Part shown: in pieces, positions 3,771-53,318 of the stretch
Numbering within the stretch: the first letter of the stretch is position 1
How the letters are laid out: each line of letters begins with the position of its first letter
From: Candidatus Poriferihabitaceae bacterium
Lineage (GTDB): Bacteria > Pseudomonadota > Gammaproteobacteria > Arenicellales > Poriferihabitantaceae
DNA: 64,000 nucleotides
Direction of reading: 5' to 3'
Assembly (NCBI GenBank): GCA_965204165.1
Contig: OZ241969.1
Coordinates: 498,910-562,909 of the forward strand
Position numbers and translations under genes: made by a program
The notes under the pieces: model-generated
What the model saw: only the letters and a program-made list of their open reading frames with translations
What the model was told of the DNA's origin: nothing
Databases searched by the model: none

Positions 3771-5315
3771 CTACCGGGACAGCTGCGGCAGCACGGAGAG
3801 GTCCCCGGCCACCAGGCCGCCGGTTACGAGTTCCCGGGCGACACTGAGTTCATCCGCCAGGTAGCGGTCCCCGGCCAGTGCCGGGACGCGCTCGCGCAGC
3901 ATGGCGATGACCCGCCGGAGCGGCGCGCTGGTCTCAAGGGGCGCGCGGAACCCGATCCCCTGGGCGCTGACCAGCAGTTCGATGCCGACGATCTGGGCGA
4001 GGTTCCGGTTCATGTCCAGCAGCCGTCTTGCGCCGTGGCATGCCATGGAGACGTGGTCCTCCTGGTTGGCGCTGGTGGGTGTGGAATCCACGGAACAGGG
4101 CGCGGCCTTCTGCTTGTTTTCCGCCATCAGCGCGGCGGCGGTGACCTCCGCCACCATGAATCCCGAATTGAGGCCCGGTTCCGGCGACAGGAATGCCGGC
4201 AGCCCGTAGTTCAGGGCCGGATCCACCATGGTGGCGATGCGTCGCTCGGTGATGGCACCGATTTCCGAGACGGCAAGCGCGATCTGGTCGGCGGCGAACG
4301 CCACCGGTTCGGCATGGAAGTTCCCGCCGGACACGATCCGCCCGCCCTCAAGGATCACCAGCGGATTGTCCGTCACCGCATTGGCCTCGATTTCCAGGGT
4401 GGCGGCCGCATGGCGCAACTGGTCGATGCAGGCGCCCATGACCTGGGGCTGGCAGCGCAGGCAGTAGGGGTCCTGAACCCGGTGATCGTTTTCCCTGTGG
4501 GACTCGCGGATTTCGGAATCCCTGAGCAACAAGCGCAGGGCGTCCGCCGCGTCGGCCTGGCCCCGGTGTCCCCGCAGGGCGTGGATTTCGGGACTGAACG
4601 GCTCCGTGGACGCCATCATCGCGTCGCTGGCCATGGCGCCCGTCACCAGGGAACTGCACGCCGCCCGCCAGGCGTCCAGGACGCCCGCAAGGGCCAGTGC
4701 CGCGGAGACCTGGGTGCCGTTGATGAGTCCCAGCCCCTCCTTGGGGCCGAGGACCACGGGCGCGAGGCCGGCCCGCTCGAGGGCGCGGCCGGCCGGCATT
4801 TCCTGCCCCTCCAGCCTGGCCCGGCCCTCGCCCATCATGGCGGCGGTCAGGTGCGCCAGGGGTGCGAGGTCGCCGGACGCACCCACCGAACCCTGACCGG
4901 GAATGACGGGCAGTATCCCCTCATTCAGCATGTCCAGGAGCTGCCGGACAATGGTCCAGCGCACCCCGGAAGCGCCGCGGGCAAGGGAATTGATCTTGAG
5001 CAGCATCACCAGCCGCACAACCTCGTCGGGCAGCGCCTCGCCCACCCCGCAGCAGTGGGACATGATCAGGTTCCGCTGCAGGGTCTCGGTTTCCCCGGCG
5101 TCGATCAGGGTGGTGGCCAGTTTGCCGAAGCCGGTGTTCACGCCGTACACCGCGGCTTCGCCGGCGGCGGCCCGCTCGACGATTCGCGCCGCCCGGTCCA
5201 CGTCCTGCCGGGCTCCGTCATCCAGGGCAACCGTGCCCTGGCGCCGGTAGTGCGATTCCAGGTCCGCGAGCGTCAGCGTGCCCGGGACCAGCTTGAGTGG
5301 GTCGGAGGAAGTCAT
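3771..5315 (-). CDS. hutH: histidine ammonia-lyase
   Basis: 514 aa with the canonical MIO triad in [30 protein letters not shown] and NQEDHVSM motifs are present. Its start overlaps the hutF stop (ATGA). Confidence 0.95.
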
Positions 5316-48965: not shown

Positions 48966-48979
48966 TTGACCCAAATCAA
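48966..48979. promoter_or_regulatory. FNR/Anr-type box TTGAC-CCAA-ATCAA
   Basis: 9/10 match to TTGAT-N4-ATCAA in the yip1-ccoN / ccoI divergent region. Its centre is about 44 bp upstream of a position roughly 20 nt before the yip1 GTG. A TATTAG -10 candidate lies at 48935-48940 on the minus strand. Confidence 0.5.
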
Positions 48980-49010
48980 GATCAGCCGGAATTACTCGGT
49001 TAGGCTTCGG

Positions 49011-50987
49011 ATGTCCACCACCGGCAGGTCCAACTTGAACATCGCCGTACCGCTCAGGGAGGATGCCGGCGGCTCCCCGCCGGACATCCCCTGTTTCCAC
49101 TGCGCCCTGCCCGTGACCACGGCGGGCGAGTTCCGGACCCGGACAGAAGACGGCGGCCGGGAGTTCTGCTGCGCCGGCTGCCAGGCGGTGTCCGAGGTCA
49201 TCAGCGCCGGGGGCATGGAGCGCTACTATGCCCTGCGGGATGCGCCCGGCAACCGTCCCGAAGCGGTGGACCGCCAGCAGTTCCTGGTCTATGACAATCC
49301 CAGGCTGCAGCAGGGCTGGCTCATCCGGAAGGACCAGTTCGCGGAAGCGGAATTCCTCGTCGACGGCATTGCCTGCGCGGCCTGCGTCTGGCTGATCGAG
49401 AGCTGGCTGGCGCGGCTGCCCGGGGTGGAGTCGGCCGACGTGAACTTCAGTACGCACCGGCTGGGGGTCCGCTGGGACCCGTCCCTGGCCGGGGTCAGCG
49501 ACCTGCTGATGGCGGTGCACCAGGTGGGCTACCGGGCCCTGCCCTACACCAGGGAGGCGCGCAGGTCGCTTGAGGAGAACCGGCGCCGGGAACTGCTCAA
49601 GCGCCTGGGCGTGGCGGCCGCCCTCGGGATGCAGGTGATGGTGATCAGCGTGGCGCTGTACGCCGGCGACTGGTTCGGCATCGAACCCGCCCTGGCGGAC
49701 TTTCTGCGGCGCGTCAACCTGCTGCTGGTGCTGCCGATCGTCGGCTATTCCGCCCAGCCCTTCTTCCGCGGCGCCTGGCGCGGCATCCGCACCCGCTCGC
49801 CGGGCATGGACCTGCCGGTCAGCCTCGGTATCGCCCTGGCCTTCGCCGGCAGCCTGTGGGCCACGGTGTCCGGCGGAGGCGACGTCTACTACGACTCCAT
49901 CGCGATGTTCGTCTTCTTCCTGCTCGGTGCGCGCTACCTGGAACTGGGCGCCCGGCTGAAAGGCGCGCGGGCCATGGACTCCCTGGCTGCCGTGGTGCCG
50001 GGCACCGCCCGCCGGCGGCGGGCTGACAACACCCTGGAGACCGTGCCGGCCGCGGAGACGGAGGCGGGCGAGCGGCTCCTGGTCCGCGCGGGCGAGGTGG
50101 TGCCGGCGGACGGCGTGATCGACGACGGCGCCTCCAGTTTCGACGAGTCGCTCATGACCGGGGAGGACCGGCCGGTGTCCCGCGGTGTCGGGGACCCGGT
50201 GATGGCGGGATCCGTGAACGTCTCCCAGCCGGTGACCGTCACCATCACTGCGCGTCCCGGCGCGACGGTGCTCGATTCGATCCTCAGGCTGGCGGAACGG
50301 GCTCATGCGGACAAGCCGCGCATTTCCCGGCTGGCGGAACGGGTTGCCCGCTGGTTCGTGGTGGGCGTCGTCATGCTGGCGGCGGCGGTGGCGGGCCTTG
50401 GTCTCTGGCTGGGGAATCCCGCCTGGCTGCCCACCACCATCGCGGTCCTGGTGGTGACCTGCCCCTGCGCGCTGTCCCTGGCGACGCCCCTGGCCCTCCA
50501 TGCGGGCATCGGAAACCTGGTCCGGCGCGGTGTGCATGTCGTTCGCGGCCATGCGCTGGAGACGCTCAACCGGGTGAATCACGTGGTGTTCGACAAGACC
50601 GGCACGCTGACCCGCGCGGAAATGGCCCTTGAGGGCATCACCACCCTTGGCCACCTTGATTCCGGGGAGGCGCTCAGGATCGCCGCGGCCCTGGAACAGG
50701 GCGCAAGCCACCCCCTGGCCCGGCCCCTGCTGGAGGCCGCGGGGGACGCCCCCCTGCCCCGGGTGACGGATTTCGCCAACGTGCCGGGACGGGGCGTCCG
50801 CGGCCGGGTGGACGGGAAAGAGTACCGGCTGGGAACAGCGGAATTCGTCGCCGAATCCATGGGCAGGCTTGACTTGGGCGGGGCGGCGGCGGACCGCACG
50901 GACGCCGCCGGCCTCCTGGTGACGCTGGGCGAGGCGTCGGGCCCGGTGGCGACATTCAGGTTCCGGGATGAACTCCGTGCGGGCGTA
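49011..50987 (+). pseudogene. ccoI: copper-translocating P1B-type ATPase CcoI/FixI, 5' fragment (interrupted by IS)
   Basis: N-terminal CxxC metal sites (CFHCALPV, CCAGCQAV), the CPC motif (VVTCPCALSLATP) and DKTGTLT are present. Similarity stops after FRFRDELRAG(V) at about 50987. The ORF then reads 55 IS-derived codons to a stop at 51152. Confidence 0.85.
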
Positions 50988-50988
50988 T

Positions 50989-51000
50989 ATGGACGCCGCC
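50989..51000. repeat. IS terminal/subterminal inverted repeat (left in window): ATGGACGCCGCC
   Basis: Exact reverse complement of 52601-52612. Confidence 0.7.
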
Positions 51001-51471
51001 GGGTTTGCAACCCCCCGGCTTCACGCTTTGGCAGTTTGACAAGTCGTCGAGCGCGGTCGTATATCAGGCCTCTGATTAAGCGGCATCACGATGTGCCGCG
51101 GGCCGGTATGGATATCAGCGGAACAGGTCCAGATCGCACTGTAGGCCTTTAGGCCGATGCCCGCACATGGTTTTCCTGTCCCCGGCTATTCGACTGTTTG
51201 CCCCTACTGCCTCTGCGCTCTTTCGAGTGGTTGCAACAACCCGGTCTCCCGGTTCCTCGTGGTTAACTCACGATCGCCGGAAAGCCGGGACGGTTCCGGA
51301 GTATTCCCCGGAATCGTTCAGGTGCCGGTCCGGCCTGCCTTGCAGACCGCAGCGGCGAAGTTCTTTTCCAGGGCCGGGGAGGCCTTTGCAGGCCCGTCCT
51401 GGCGCCGAACGCGGGACACCCTCGGCCATACGAGGTCGCCAACCCATGTCTGAGTGTCTCCGGACACATTC

Positions 51472-52527
51472 TCACGCTCCCGCGGCCTGGATGCCGGCAG
51501 CCCGGACTACCGCGTCATGCCGATAGTCCTCCCCCTTCATCAGCAGCGCCCACATGATCCGTGCCATCTTGTTGGCCAGCACGATGGCGGCCTGGATCGT
51601 CGGCTTGCGTTCGAGCAGCCGCTTCAACCAGGGGTCCGGCTCCTTGCCCCAGCGGGTCGTTCGCTGGATCACGGTCATCGCGCCGGTGATCAGCAGTCGG
51701 CGCAGGTCCCGCTGACCCATCTTCGACAGCTCCCCGATCCTGGTCTTCCCCCCGGACGATTTCTGAAGGGGCACGAGACCGAGCCAGGCTGCGAAATCCC
51801 TGCCGCACCTGAAGTCCTCCATGTCCGGCGCAAAGGCCAGGAACGCCAGTCCCGTGATCGGGCCCACGCCCGGAATGGTCCGAAGACGTCGAATGGTTTC
51901 ATCATCCCTGGCGGCCGCCCGGCCCTGGCGGTCCAGTTCGACAATCCGGGCATCGAACGCGCGGATCTGCTTTACGAGCATGTCCGCCATCTCCCGGGCG
52001 AGGTCGGGAAGCCGGGAGTCTTCCCGGTCCTCCAGCACCGCCTCCAGGGTCTTGACGTTGGCCCGCCCCCTGGGCGCCACCAGGCCGTACTCCGCCAGCA
52101 GTCCCCGCAGGGAATTGATGGTCTGCGTACGCTGACGGACCATGAGGTCCCGGACCCGGAACAGCATGGCCCGTGCCTGCTGGCCTTCGTCTTTTACCGA
52201 AACGACCCGCATCGTCGGGCGTGAGGCCGCCTCCGCGATGGCTTCCGCATCCGCCATGTCGTTCTTGTGCCGTTTGACGAACGGCTTCACATAGGCGGGC
52301 GGCAGAATATGAACCCGGTGGCCCAGCTGGCGGATCTCACGTGCCCAGTGGTGGGCCCCGCCGCAGGCCTCCAACGCAACCAGGCAGGGGGGCTGCTTGC
52401 CCAGAAAGTACAGCAGCTTCCCCCGCGTGACCCGCTTGCGGAATGCCACCGAGCCGTCCTGGTAGGCCCCGTGGAGCTGGAATAGATTCTTTGCCAGGTC
52501 AATACCGATGATGCTAATCTTTTTCAT
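51472..52527 (-). CDS. IS110 family transposase (DEDD N-terminal domain + Transposase_20 C-terminal domain)
   Basis: 351 aa with MKKISIIGIDLAKNLFQLHG, ALEACGGAHHWA, KNDMADAEAI and LRTIPGVGPITGLAFLAF. Confidence 0.9.
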   Translation of the reverse strand: MKKISIIGIDLAKNLFQLHGAYQDGSVAFRKRVTRGKLLYFLGKQPPCLVALEACGGAHHWAREIRQLGHRVHILPPAYVKPFVKRHKNDMADAEAIAEAASRPTMRVVSVKDEGQQARAMLFRVRDLMVRQRTQTINSLRGLLAEYGLVAPRGRANVKTLEAVLEDREDSRLPDLAREMADMLVKQIRAFDARIVELDRQGRAAARDDETIRRLRTIPGVGPITGLAFLAFAPDMEDFRCGRDFAAWLGLVPLQKSSGGKTRIGELSKMGQRDLRRLLITGAMTVIQRTTRWGKEPDPWLKRLLERKPTIQAAIVLANKMARIMWALLMKGEDYRHDAVVRAAGIQAAGA

Positions 52528-52600
52528 GGATGTCGTCTCTCGTTGAAGGAGTGTTCAATGCCAGCCTGCTGGCACCTGCTTCACTATGAAGCAGTAGAGA

Positions 52601-52612
52601 GGCGGCGTCCAT
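52601..52612. repeat. IS terminal/subterminal inverted repeat (right in window): GGCGGCGTCCAT
   Basis: Exact reverse complement of 50989-51000. Confidence 0.7.
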
Positions 52613-53128
52613 TCCATCGCACACGGCCTCGTGCAGCGGATGCGGTCCGACGGCATGGACATTTCCCTGCTGTCCGGAGACCGCCCCGGCGCGGTGGACG
52701 CCATTGCCCGGGACGTGGGCATCGGGGATGCCCGCGGCGGATGCCTGCCCGGGCAGAAGCTTGCCGCACTGGACACCCTGATCGGGGACGGCAGGGTGGT
52801 AGCCATGGTGGGCGACGGGATCAACGACGCGCCCGCGCTGGCCAGGGCCCATCTCGGCGTCGCCATGGCGCGCAATGTCAACCTGGCCTCCGCCAGCGCC
52901 GACATGGTGATCACGGCGGATGATCTCGGGGTGCTCGGCGACGCCCGGCGCGTTGCCCGGCGCACCTTCCGCATCATCCGCCAGAACATCGCCTGGGCGC
53001 TGGCCTATAATATCCTGGCCGTGCCCGCGGCGCTGGCCGGCATGGTGCCCCCCTGGCTGGCGGGCATCGGCATGTCCCTCAGTTCCGTGGTGGTTGTACT
53101 GAACGCCGCGCGCCTGACCAGAGACTGA
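52613..53128 (+). pseudogene. ccoI: CcoI/FixI P-type ATPase, 3' fragment
   Basis: SIAHGLVQRMRSDGMDISLLSGDRPGAV...MVGDGINDAPALA... (hinge motif) plus the last two TM helices. It is in frame with the 5' fragment once the IS is removed. Confidence 0.85.
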
Positions 53129-53132
53129 ATCC

Positions 53133-53318
53133 ATGGAAATCATCTACCTGCTGATACCGCTGTCCATCGTGCTGGTGGCGGCCATCGTCGGGGTTTTCCT
53201 GTGGTCGGTGCGCAGCGGACAGTTCGACGACCTCAAGGGACCGGCGCACCGTATCCTGATGGACGACGACGCCCCCGCCCGGAAGAACGCAAGCCAGGAC
53301 CCGTCCGCCGCCGATTGA
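53133..53318 (+). CDS. ccoS: cbb3 oxidase maturation protein CcoS/FixS
   Basis: 61 aa. MEIIYLLIPLSIVLVAAIVGVFLWSVRSGQFDDL is the classical CcoS sequence pattern. Confidence 0.85.
   Translation: MEIIYLLIPLSIVLVAAIVGVFLWSVRSGQFDDLKGPAHRILMDDDAPARKNASQDPSAAD

What the first reader, a model, noticed from the sequence alone, without database searches (positions are those of the whole stretch)
50988..51471. Long 3' non-coding arm of the IS: candidate bridge/seek RNA locus
The element has only 85 bp upstream of the transposase start (52528-52612) but 484 bp of non-coding sequence downstream of its stop (50988-51471). IS110-family DEDD recombinases were shown in 2024 to use an element-encoded guide RNA (bridge RNA / seekRNA) with target- and donor-binding loops. 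IS1111-type members carry the long non-coding end 3' of the recombinase, as seen here. The 12-bp inverted repeats (50989-51000 / 52601-52612) also fit the IS1111 subgroup habit of (sub)terminal IRs. One possible guide match exists: GCCCGCAC at 51159-51166 is the reverse complement of the ccoI flank GTGCGGGC at 50977-50984, a few nt from the junction. An 8-mer match in GC-rich DNA could easily be chance.
Basis: partly seen in the sequence, partly recalled or inferred. Interest (0 to 1): 0.55.

Follow-up and report, generated by a model that had tools for sequence, protein, structure and literature searches.

The report
IS1111-type bridge (seek) RNA gene

Summary
Supported. An intact IS110-family (IS1111-group) element on the minus strand interrupts a CcoI-type copper P-type ATPase gene. 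The element spans 50984-52619 with a CG core at each junction, so the 12-bp inverted repeats are subterminal. Removing it restores an in-frame 842-aa ATPase.

The distal ~180 nt of the 3' arm (51030-51211, minus strand) is a structured RNA. An outer stem encloses a target-binding arm and a donor-binding arm. Compensatory base changes support this fold in 20 relatives aligned without a model and in 62 distinct sequences aligned to a covariance model.

Alone it is not significant (P about 0.5). However, guides and flanks change together across 23 and 43 independent IS lineages (0 of 10,000 permutations). The donor guide also tracks the right-end sequence and the core dinucleotide (CG, TG or AG).

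This copy's left-target guide pairs only 5 nt with its site.

The proximal 260 nt of the arm (51212-51471) is not bridge RNA. A 165-nt block of it is shared only with four close relatives and looks constrained; its function is unknown.

No transcript data exist. Novelty: new member of a known kind.

The parts
50984..52619 (-). Whole IS110-family (IS1111-group) insertion sequence including the CG core copy at each junction. The mobile unit is 1634 bp.
   Evidence: End alignment with L001-L004. In-frame restoration of the ATPase. Single copy in the window.
52618..52619 (-). CG core at the left-end junction (transposase orientation).
   Evidence: All four close relatives start CG|ATGGA. More distant clades have TG or AG here, with matching changes in the LTG and LDG.
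52613..52617 (-). Left-end extension ATGGA outside the IR. With the core it forms the 7-bp left extension typical of IS1111 elements. It is the predicted pairing partner of the RDG.
   Evidence: The 7-bp extension is described in PMC11187229.
52601..52612 (.). Left subterminal inverted repeat (ATGGACGCCGCC in transposase orientation).
51472..52527 (-). Transposase / bridge recombinase gene, 351 aa, apparently intact. The GLVPLQKSSG motif is present.
   Evidence: It is 89% identical to L001 over the full length.
51377..51471 (-). Hypervariable spacer directly after the stop codon. It cannot be aligned even with the closest relatives, which carry different sequence and extra insertions of 100-200 nt here.
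51212..51376 (-). Subclade-specific conserved block, predicted to form three hairpins. Its function is unknown. It is not part of the family-wide bridge RNA.
   Evidence: Shared only with L001-L004. Fold. No conserved ORF. Identity is 87/84/70%, against 77/72/63% at synonymous sites of the transposase gene.
51030..51211 (-). Bridge/seek RNA core. Outer stem P1 encloses the target-binding arm and the donor-binding arm (a three-way junction).
   Evidence: Covariation. CM R1 scores 164 bits here and is the only hit in 64 kb. The whole arm folds with z = -3.55.
51120..51182 (-). Target-binding arm: stem P2, an internal loop carrying RTG and LTG, and terminal hairpin P3 (51144-51155).
   Evidence: Helices 5-7 are 94-97% paired with compensatory changes and 91-99.5% in the CM alignment.
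51158..51166 (-). Right-target guide (RTG), RNA 5'-GUGCGGG-CA. Seven nt are complementary to the ccoI flank next to the right end (window 50977-50983). The C then pairs with the core G (50984), giving the 8-nt match 50977-50984.
   Evidence: Anchored match length is 7, against a cross-pair mean of 1.9; lengths of 5 or more occur in 2.8% of cross-pairs.
51135..51142 (-). Left-target guide (LTG), RNA 5'-ACAGUG-CG. Only GUG+CG (51135-51139) matches the left flank ...GTGTG|CG (complement of window 52618-52622).
   Evidence: In relatives this position matches 4-8 nt of the left flank plus the core.
51053..51119 (-). Donor-binding arm: P4, an internal loop carrying RDG and LDG, P5 (GGCC/GGCC) and hairpin P6 (51080-51099).
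   Evidence: Helices 8-10.
51108..51114 (-). Right-donor guide (RDG), RNA UAUCCAU. UCCAU is complementary to the left-end extension ATGGA.
   Evidence: Covariation with the left end is partial and seen by eye only (CCCAU with ATGGG in L014-type elements, AUCUCAU with ATGGGAT in L022).
51058..51064 (-). Left-donor guide (LDG), RNA AUAUACG. It is identical to the right-end terminus AT-ATA-CG (window 50984-50990, complement).
   Evidence: The LDG tracks the right end across lineages: ATACG, AGATG, ACATG, ACACG, AGAAG. Mean match is 6.1 nt against 3.1 in cross-pairs.
51005..51010 (-). TTGCAA, a candidate -35 box of a promoter completed only in the excised circle. The proposed promoter is TTGCAA, 17 nt, then TACGAT across the RE-CG-LE junction.
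   Evidence: Read from the sequence. TTGC is conserved at this position in relatives. No sigma-70-like promoter is found in the integrated element. This part is inference.
50989..51000 (.). Right subterminal inverted repeat.
50984..50988 (-). Right-end extension ATA plus the CG core (transposase orientation).
48966..50983 (+). 5' part of the interrupted CcoI-type heavy-metal P-type ATPase gene (the target).
52620..53128 (+). 3' part of the interrupted ATPase gene. ccoS follows at 53133-53318.

Best explanation
Window 50984-52619 is an intact IS1111-group member of the IS110 family, inserted on the minus strand, antisense to a ccoI-type copper ATPase gene.

The distal part of its 3' non-coding arm (about 51030-51211, minus strand) encodes a bridge RNA, also called a seekRNA. 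The RNA folds as an outer stem enclosing two arms. Each arm is a stem, an internal loop and a terminal hairpin.

Target-binding arm:
- The 5' loop strand (RTG, GUGCGGG) pairs with the top strand of the target to the right of a CG core.
- The 3' loop strand (LTG, ..GUG-CG) pairs with the bottom strand of the target to the left of the core, and with the core itself.

Donor-binding arm:
- UCCAU (RDG) pairs with the element's left end, ATGGA.
- AUAUACG (LDG) pairs with the bottom strand of the right end plus the core.

By analogy with IS621 and ISEc11, the DEDD/serine recombinase bound to this RNA would bring the circular donor junction (RE-CG-LE) together with a target carrying CG. It would then exchange strands at the core. 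This inserts the element without a target duplication and leaves CG at both junctions, which is what is seen here. The same four guides would recognise the two hybrid junctions for excision.

Expression is probably driven mainly by a promoter assembled at the circle junction (TTGCAA, 17 nt, TACGAT). In that case the RNA would be made from the transposase transcript and then trimmed.

What is shown: the element's anatomy and boundaries, the RNA structure by covariation, and the co-variation of guides with flanks and ends.
What is inferred: transcription, processing, binding to the recombinase, the chemistry, and the junction promoter.

The proximal 260 nt of the arm is not part of this RNA. Its conserved 165-nt block is an unexplained add-on specific to this subclade.
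For: Protein:
- PF01548 + PF02371 and NF033542 'IS110 family RNA-guided transposase' over the full length.

Boundaries and core:
- End alignment with L001-L004.
- In-frame 842-aa ATPase after excision, matching TIGR01525 positions 1-560 in one stretch.
- Gap-free alignment to CopA 3rfu across the junction.

Structure:
- In a MAFFT alignment of 20 lineages made without a model, 83.8% of cells are paired against 28-38% for slid controls. 29 of 46 pairs show double changes, and 0 of 500 shuffles reach this.
- CM R1 finds one hit in the window at 164 bits (this sequence was in the seed); the next best is 7 bits.
- R1 finds full-length, same-strand hits just 3' of the transposase gene in 65 loci outside the seed.
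- In that alignment 87.4% of cells are paired, 39 of 45 pairs show double changes, and the covariation score is 0.527, against 0.155 for shuffles and at most 0.088 for slid controls.

Guides:
- RTG against right flank: anchored match with the core excluded is 5.30 nt, against 2.06 +/- 0.27. LTG against left flank: 4.33 against 1.93 +/- 0.30. Both are 0 of 10,000 permutations. Wrong-sense and wrong-side controls give 1.6-2.0.
- The result repeats on lineages outside the seed: 4.30 against 2.03, and 3.86 against 2.47.
- Genomes with several copies have the same left flank as the LTG: CTAA|CG in 2 of 3 copies (ATAA|CG in the third), CGGAAG|CG in 6 of 6, CAAAAA|TG in 5 of 5, CTGTTC|CG in 5 of 5.
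- The four closest relatives keep the RNA backbone at 76-87% identity but have unrelated RTG and LTG. Each matches its own flanks.
- The LDG follows the right end and the core.

Literature:
- IS1111 elements carry the guide RNA 3' of the transposase gene, with the top-strand match 5' of the bottom-strand match and no duplication (PMC11187229).
- A bridge RNA is predicted in the right end of 93% of IS1111 elements (PMC11208160).
Against: - There is no transcript, processing or binding evidence for this element.
- No promoter-like site is found in the integrated copy. The proposed junction promoter matches only 8 of 12 consensus positions.
- The element is antisense to ccoI, so read-through from that gene cannot express it.
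- In this copy the LTG pairs only 5 nt (3 plus the core) with the site. The RTG position opposite the first core base is an A-C mismatch. The site is therefore near-cognate, or the guide has drifted since insertion.
- Only one copy is visible in the window, so target specificity of this exact element is untested.
- RDG covariation with the left end is weak, because ATGG/CCAU is nearly invariant.
- Rfam has no family matching the arm. The published bridge/seekRNA models could not be run.
- The A5 alignment is fitted to the model and so leans toward the structure.
Confidence: 0.9

Rival explanations
1. The arm is non-functional filler or a 3' UTR, and the 8-mer match to the flank is coincidence.
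For: The 8-mer alone is expected by chance about half the time. Part of the arm (51377-51471) really is hypervariable.
Against: Structure is conserved with compensatory changes across lineages whose transposases are 33-89% identical. Guides and flanks co-vary. Identity of the RNA region exceeds synonymous-site identity of the transposase gene.
Confidence: 0.02
2. The conserved distal arm works as DNA, as an array of recombinase-binding sites next to the right inverted repeat, and not as an RNA guide.
For: IS1111 elements have long subterminal repeats that may be recognised as DNA. The TTGC motif and the right IR adjoin the region.
Against: Double compensatory changes keep the helices (39 of 45 pairs). 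That is the signature of a folded single strand, not of duplex binding sites. The loop sequences track the insertion-site flanks on both strands and the element's own ends. NCR-derived RNA co-purifies with IS1111 transposases and works in trans (PMC11187229).
Confidence: 0.03
3. The whole 484-nt arm, including the proximal block 51212-51376, is a single longer guide RNA. The block would be a functional 5' domain for stability, processing or recombinase loading.
For: The block adjoins P1 and is predicted to form three hairpins. It is 87/84/70% identical in L001-L003, against 77/72/63% at synonymous sites. Long and short seekRNA forms exist in IS1111 elements, and IS621 tolerates extended transcripts (PMC11187229, PMC13626964).
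Against: The block is absent from every other clade carrying the same RNA, where the model starts about 50-100 nt after the stop codon. Only 3 of 49 predicted pairs show double changes, in four sequences. The block has no complementarity to the flanks or ends beyond chance.
Confidence: 0.25
4. The arm encodes a small protein.
For: Several ORFs of 49-119 aa overlap the arm in this GC-rich DNA.
Against: No reading frame stays open in all four related sequences. Indels among relatives are not multiples of three. The substitutions are paired across stems, not spaced by codon.
Confidence: 0.01

Closest known systems
seekRNA of IS1111-family elements (ISEc11, ISKpn4, ISPa11, ISPst6; Siddiquee et al. 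2024, PMC11187229)
   Same: - The guide RNA is encoded in the long NCR 3' of the transposase gene.
- The element has subterminal IRs with a 7-bp left-end extension and makes no target duplication.
- The top-strand match lies 5' of the bottom-strand match, in one internal loop around a hairpin.
- Close relatives share the backbone but have swapped guides, as in ISEc11 and ISXne4.
- A promoter is expected only at the circle junction.
   Different: - The transposase is a different lineage. It is at most about 60% identical to any IS110-family transposase in the plasmid collection.
- No sequence comparison with the published seekRNAs could be made.
- A donor-binding arm and an enclosing outer stem are evident here. 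The paper describes only target matches in the short 82-96-nt form.
- This element has an extra 260-nt spacer between the transposase gene and the RNA.
Bridge RNA of IS621 (IS110 group; Durrant et al. 2024 PMC11208160; Hiraizumi et al. 2024 PMC11208158; PMC13626964)
   Same: - Two internal loops each carry a left and a right guide. They read the target and the donor on both strands around a shared core dinucleotide.
- The left guides (LTG, LDG) include the core.
- The recombinase has the DEDD + Tnp domain architecture.
   Different: - The RNA is 3' of the gene rather than 5'.
- Guide order within each loop is reversed (right guide 5', left guide 3').
- The core is CG (TG or AG in sister clades) rather than CT.
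- The subterminal repeats are 12 bp rather than 2-3 bp.
- Both arms are enclosed by an outer helix.
- Handshake guides were not identified here.
Predicted IS1111-group bridge RNAs (Durrant et al. 2024, Fig. 6 and Extended Data Fig. 10)
   Same: The RNA is encoded in the right end, with target-, donor- and core-complementary loop positions and long STIRs. Such an RNA is predicted in 93% of ISfinder IS1111 elements.
   Different: Those covariance models and figures were not available, so identity with a particular published structure class could not be checked.

Membership tests
IS110 family, IS1111 group insertion sequence | DEDD (RuvC-like) N-terminal domain plus C-terminal Tnp domain carrying the GL-P----S/T-G motif. 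| tested here: met
   PF01548 (1e-14) and PF02371 (4e-25). NF033542 at 326 bits, covering profile positions 1-342 of 343. GLVPLQKSSG is read in the translation.
IS110 family, IS1111 group insertion sequence | Subterminal inverted repeats of 7-17 bp, with a few bases (7 at the left end) outside them. | tested here: met
   The 12-bp IRs are perfect. Homology with L001-L004 extends 7 bp beyond the left IR and 5 bp beyond the right IR.
IS110 family, IS1111 group insertion sequence | Long non-coding region downstream of the transposase gene and a short one upstream. | tested here: met
   486-488 bp against 90-92 bp.
IS110 family, IS1111 group insertion sequence | Insertion without a target-site duplication. 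The core dinucleotide is shared by donor and target. | tested here: met
   CG is present at both junctions in the window and in L001-L003. Removing 1634 bp restores the reading frame with no gap relative to CopA. No empty site from a related genome was examined.
IS110 family, IS1111 group insertion sequence | Sequence-specific target choice by all copies of one element. | not testable with these tools
   There is one copy in the window and no cognate site elsewhere in it. No identical element was found in the collections. The feature is met for related multi-copy elements.
IS110 family, IS1111 group insertion sequence | A promoter assembled at the RE-LE junction of the circular intermediate. 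| tested here: inconclusive
   TTGCAA, 17 nt, TACGAT can be read across the reconstructed junction. TTGC is conserved. Only 8 of 12 consensus positions match, and no circle has been observed.
Bridge RNA / seekRNA | A conserved RNA secondary structure in the NCR, on the transposase strand, with stem, internal loop and hairpin modules. | tested here: met
Bridge RNA / seekRNA | Two loop segments complementary to opposite strands of the target, on either side of the insertion point. | tested here: met
   In the window the RTG pairs 7 nt plus 1 core base, and the LTG pairs 3 nt plus 2 core bases. Family-wide permutation tests give 0 of 10,000 in both sets.
Bridge RNA / seekRNA | Loop segments complementary to the donor, meaning the element's ends and core. 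| tested here: met
   The LDG AUAUACG equals the right-end terminus and co-varies with it and with the core across lineages. The RDG UCCAU pairs with ATGGA at the left end, but with only limited covariation.
Bridge RNA / seekRNA | IS1111-type order: the top-strand (right) guide lies 5' of the bottom-strand (left) guide. | tested here: met
   The RTG at 51158-51166 is 5' of the LTG at 51135-51142 on the minus strand. This is the order reported in PMC11187229.
Bridge RNA / seekRNA | The RNA is transcribed, binds the recombinase and is required for transposition. | not testable with these tools
   No expression data are available. No promoter or terminator consensus is found in the integrated copy.
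Bridge RNA / seekRNA | A match to a published or curated covariance model. | not testable with these tools
   Rfam 15 gives no hit in the element at E up to 10. The published bridge/seekRNA models are not available here. A model built here was used instead.

The most novel reading that the evidence does not exclude
The conserved 165-nt block at 51212-51376 lies between the transposase stop codon and the bridge RNA. It is found only in this subclade and is more conserved than synonymous sites. It could be an extra functional RNA module. One possibility is a 5' domain or processing/stability element. Another is that it lets the guide RNA be made from the integrated copy without the circle-junction promoter. 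Either would be a new accessory layer on IS1111 bridge systems.
Probability: 0.2. Interest if true: 0.5.

Novelty: new member of a known kind. Interest (0 to 1): 0.3.

Why it matters
- It confirms, from sequence comparison alone, that an unannotated stretch of an IS in an uncultured-type, GC-rich gammaproteobacterial genome is a programmable guide RNA, and it maps all four guides to the base.
- It gives a well-supported consensus structure for one IS1111 clade: an outer stem enclosing target and donor arms, with a CG, TG or AG core. The clade spans transposases of 33-89% identity.
- About 60 natural examples of guides re-matched to new targets came out of the analysis. These could help in choosing or engineering IS1111-type bridge recombinases.
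- For genome annotation, the ccoI gene here is disrupted by a potentially still-mobile element. Current pipelines and Rfam do not label this RNA.
- It does not change what is known about how these systems work.

Tried and rejected
- Rfam scan of 50500-53100 at E up to 10 gave nothing inside the element.
- The sigma-70 promoter and intrinsic-terminator scan of the integrated element found none.
- The 8-mer was tested as stand-alone evidence and rejected (P about 0.49).
- A search for other copies or cognate targets in the window found only the element itself and chance-level near matches.
- No element more than 60% identical was found in metagenome contigs or plasmids. In plasmids only the donor-arm/P1 part of the arm finds DNA matches, all of them unannotated.
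- I tested whether the proximal spacer is a degenerate second bridge RNA or a repeat. There is no similarity.
- I tested whether the spacer codes for a protein. No frame is conserved.
- RNAalifold on four sequences proposed an AUCAG/CUGAU hairpin that would sequester the LDG. I rejected it in favour of the GGCC/GGCC helix P5, which holds in all clades and has a compensatory U-A in L057.
- Handshake guides as in IS621 were looked for by eye next to the RTG and RDG. No consistent pattern was seen, and this was not pursued.
They would leave two extra codons relative to CopA and ignore 7 + 5 bp conserved among relatives.

Full report
**What is in the sequence**

The region holds one ORF of 351 aa on the minus strand (51472-52527). 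It carries the two Pfam domains of IS110-family recombinases: PF01548 (DEDD_Tnp_IS110) and PF02371. It also matches NCBIfam NF033542, 'IS110 family RNA-guided transposase', at 326 bits over the whole profile. The GL-P----SG motif reported for IS1111 transposases (PMC11187229) is present as GLVPLQKSSG.

The perfect 12-bp inverted repeats at 50989-51000 and 52601-52612 are real. So is the reverse-complement 8-mer pair 51159-51166 / 50977-50984. The element occurs once in the window.

**Boundaries**

A genome-collection scan with the transposase returned 55 loci. Four of them (L001-L004, 77-89% protein identity) share DNA homology over the whole element. Aligning their ends shows the homology starts at CG-ATGGA before the left repeat and stops at ATA-CG after the right repeat. 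The flanks beyond are unrelated to one another.

The element therefore spans 50984-52619 with CG at both junctions. That is a 1634-bp mobile unit plus one duplicated core. The repeats are subterminal, with the 7-bp left-end extension described for IS1111 elements (PMC11187229).

Joining 50985 to 52620 gives an 842-aa ORF with a single terminal stop. That ORF matches the heavy-metal P-type ATPase model TIGR01525 from position 1 to 560 in one stretch. It also aligns to Legionella CopA (3rfu) with no gap across the junction. ccoS follows at 53133-53318, so calling the gene ccoI is reasonable.

**The RNA**

The minus strand of the arm folds more stably than shuffles (z = -3.55). Rfam has nothing matching it.

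Profile searches showed that the last ~225 nt of the arm is conserved well beyond the close relatives. The first ~260 nt is not.

From these alignments I derived the following structure for 51030-51211:
- An outer helix P1 encloses two arms.
- Arm 1 (51120-51182) is a stem, an internal loop and a hairpin.
- Arm 2 (51053-51119) has the same layout.

On a MAFFT alignment of 20 distinct lineages, made without reference to the structure:
- 83.8% of cells are paired, against 28-38% when partners are slid by 1-3 columns.
- 29 of 46 pairs carry changes on both sides.
- No shuffle out of 500 reaches the observed values.

A covariance model built from this alignment gives these results:
- It hits the window once, at 51030-51216, with 164 bits. 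This sequence was in the seed. The next best hit scores 7 bits.
- It finds full-length hits on the transposase strand, just downstream of the gene, in 70 loci. 65 of these were not in the seed, and their transposase identity goes down to about 33%.
- In that model-fitted alignment 87.4% of cells pair and 39 of 45 pairs show double changes.
- The covariation score is 0.527, against 0.155 for shuffles and at most 0.088 for slid controls.

**The guides**

In the internal loop of arm 1, the 5' strand reads GUGCGGG-CA. Its seven guide bases are the reverse complement of the seven ccoI bases next to the right end, and the next base, C, pairs with the second core base.

The 3' strand reads ACAGUG-CG. 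Only GUG-CG matches the left flank ...GTGTG|CG.

Taken alone the 8-mer means little. About half of first-order Markov resamplings of the arm give an 8-mer match to a flank. The decisive evidence is comparative.

The four closest relatives keep the RNA backbone at 76-87% identity but have unrelated sequences at exactly these two loop positions. Each matches its own flanks. For example, in L002 GGGAUG-CG matches the flank CG|CATCCC, and in L003 UAUGAAU-CG matches the flank CG|ATTCATA.

I scored the length of the match anchored at the junction, with the core excluded.

| Set | Guide vs flank | Observed (nt) | Re-paired null | Permutations reaching observed |
|---|---|---|---|---|
| First set, 23 lineages | RTG vs right flank | 5.30 | 2.06 +/- 0.27 | 0 of 10,000 |
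| First set, 15 lineages | LTG vs left flank | 4.33 | 1.93 +/- 0.30 | 0 of 10,000 |
| Lineages outside the seed, 43 | RTG vs right flank | 4.30 | 2.03 +/- 0.18 | 0 of 10,000 |
| Lineages outside the seed, 35 | LTG vs left flank | 3.86 | 2.47 +/- 0.16 | 0 of 10,000 |

Wrong-strand and wrong-side controls give 1.6-2.0 nt.

Genomes with several copies of one element show the same left flank at every copy, equal to that element's left guide. In L027-31 both flanks are the same at all five copies.

In arm 2, the 3' loop strand AUAUACG equals the right-end terminus plus the core. It follows that terminus across lineages: ATACG, AGATG, ACATG, ACACG, AGAAG. This includes changes of the core from CG to TG or AG, which also appear in the left guide and at the left end.

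The 5' loop strand UCCAU pairs with the left-end ATGGA. Because ATGG is almost invariant, covariation there is limited to a few cases.

**How it most likely works**

The anatomy matches the bridge RNA / seekRNA mechanism. A recombinase tetramer holds one RNA arm on the target and the other on the circular donor junction. Each DNA is read on both strands around a shared core dinucleotide. Strand exchange at the core inserts the element without a duplication (PMC11208160, PMC11208158, PMC11187229). The hybrid junctions are read by the same guides for excision (PMC13626964).

The order of guides (top-strand match first) and the location 3' of the gene are the IS1111 arrangement (PMC11187229). These mechanistic steps are inferred by homology and were not tested here.

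No promoter-like or terminator-like site is found in the integrated copy. Across the reconstructed circle junction one can read TTGCAA, 17 nt, TACGAT, and TTGC is conserved in relatives. This is consistent with the junction promoters known for this family, but it is a weak consensus match. The element lies antisense to ccoI, so host read-through from that gene would not express it.

**What does not fit or remains open**

- This copy's left guide pairs only five bases with its site. The base opposite the first core position in the right guide is mismatched. The site is near-cognate, or the guide has drifted since insertion.
- The proximal arm falls into two parts. One is a hypervariable stretch (51377-51471). 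The other is a 165-nt block (51212-51376) shared only with L001-L004.
- The block is predicted to form three hairpins and has no conserved reading frame.
- It resembles neither the bridge RNA nor anything else fetched.
- It is 87/84/70% identical to L001/L002/L003, against 77/72/63% at synonymous sites of the adjacent gene, so it seems to be under constraint.
- Its role is unknown. In all other clades the RNA begins about 50-100 nt after the stop codon.

**Comparison and verdict**

Every defining feature of an IS1111-group element and of a bridge/seekRNA that sequence analysis can test is met. Expression, protein binding and target specificity of this exact copy could not be tested.

Bridge RNAs were already predicted in the right end of 93% of catalogued IS1111 elements (PMC11208160). 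This is therefore a new member of a known kind: a distinct lineage, with a transposase at most about 60% identical to any in the plasmid collection.

Its coordinates need correcting, and only the distal part of the arm is the RNA.

Noticed in passing
window 48966-50983 and 52620-53128 (+); ccoS 53133-53318: The element splits a CcoI-type copper P-type ATPase gene just before the conserved LLSGD region of the P-domain. ccoS downstream is intact. The host's cbb3-oxidase maturation ATPase is probably inactivated unless a paralogue exists.
   Followed up: partly
window 51212-51376 (-): A subclade-specific structured block between the transposase gene and the bridge RNA. It is more conserved than synonymous sites of the neighbouring gene, and its function is unknown.
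   Followed up: partly
L001 about 2690-2900, L003 about 1815-2125, L004 about 1600-1790: The closest relatives carry an extra conserved insert of ~140-200 nt (CACTNCCGCCCTCGCTC...GACGGCCATGAATGGCC) right after the stop codon. The window's copy lacks it. This position seems to tolerate or collect insertions.
   Followed up: no
L004 523-1568: This relative's transposase reading frame is broken, with a stop at codon 110 in the frame of the start codon. It looks like a decaying copy.
   Followed up: no
L017-L020, L032, L052 (one Paracoccaceae genome): Six copies of one element share the left flank CGGAAG|CG, which equals the LTG. The right flank matches the RTG well in only two of them. This suggests the left guide dominates site choice in that element, or that secondary rearrangements occurred.
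   Followed up: partly
L070-L096 (marine-sediment metagenome clade, ~40% identity): The donor guide reads AUAUACG, but the right-end junction is either ATATACG or ATATATG while the left end starts TG. The first core position seems to tolerate C/T differences.
   Followed up: no
L006 around 4320-4335: The right junction reads ACATACA|ACGGTCAT where sister copies L005 and L007 read ACATACG|CGG. This is a variant or imprecise junction.
   Followed up: no
L015 and L016 (Mesorhizobium sp. L-8-3): Two or three bridge-RNA hits and duplicated transposase segments lie within 4 kb. This suggests nested or tandem IS1111-type elements of two different lineages.
   Followed up: no
plasmid records H1-H15: The donor-arm/P1 part of this RNA finds 70-81% DNA matches on many alpha-proteobacterial plasmids, nearly all with no annotated feature beneath (one lies under a protein-coding gene). 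The RNA class is not annotated in public records.
   Followed up: no
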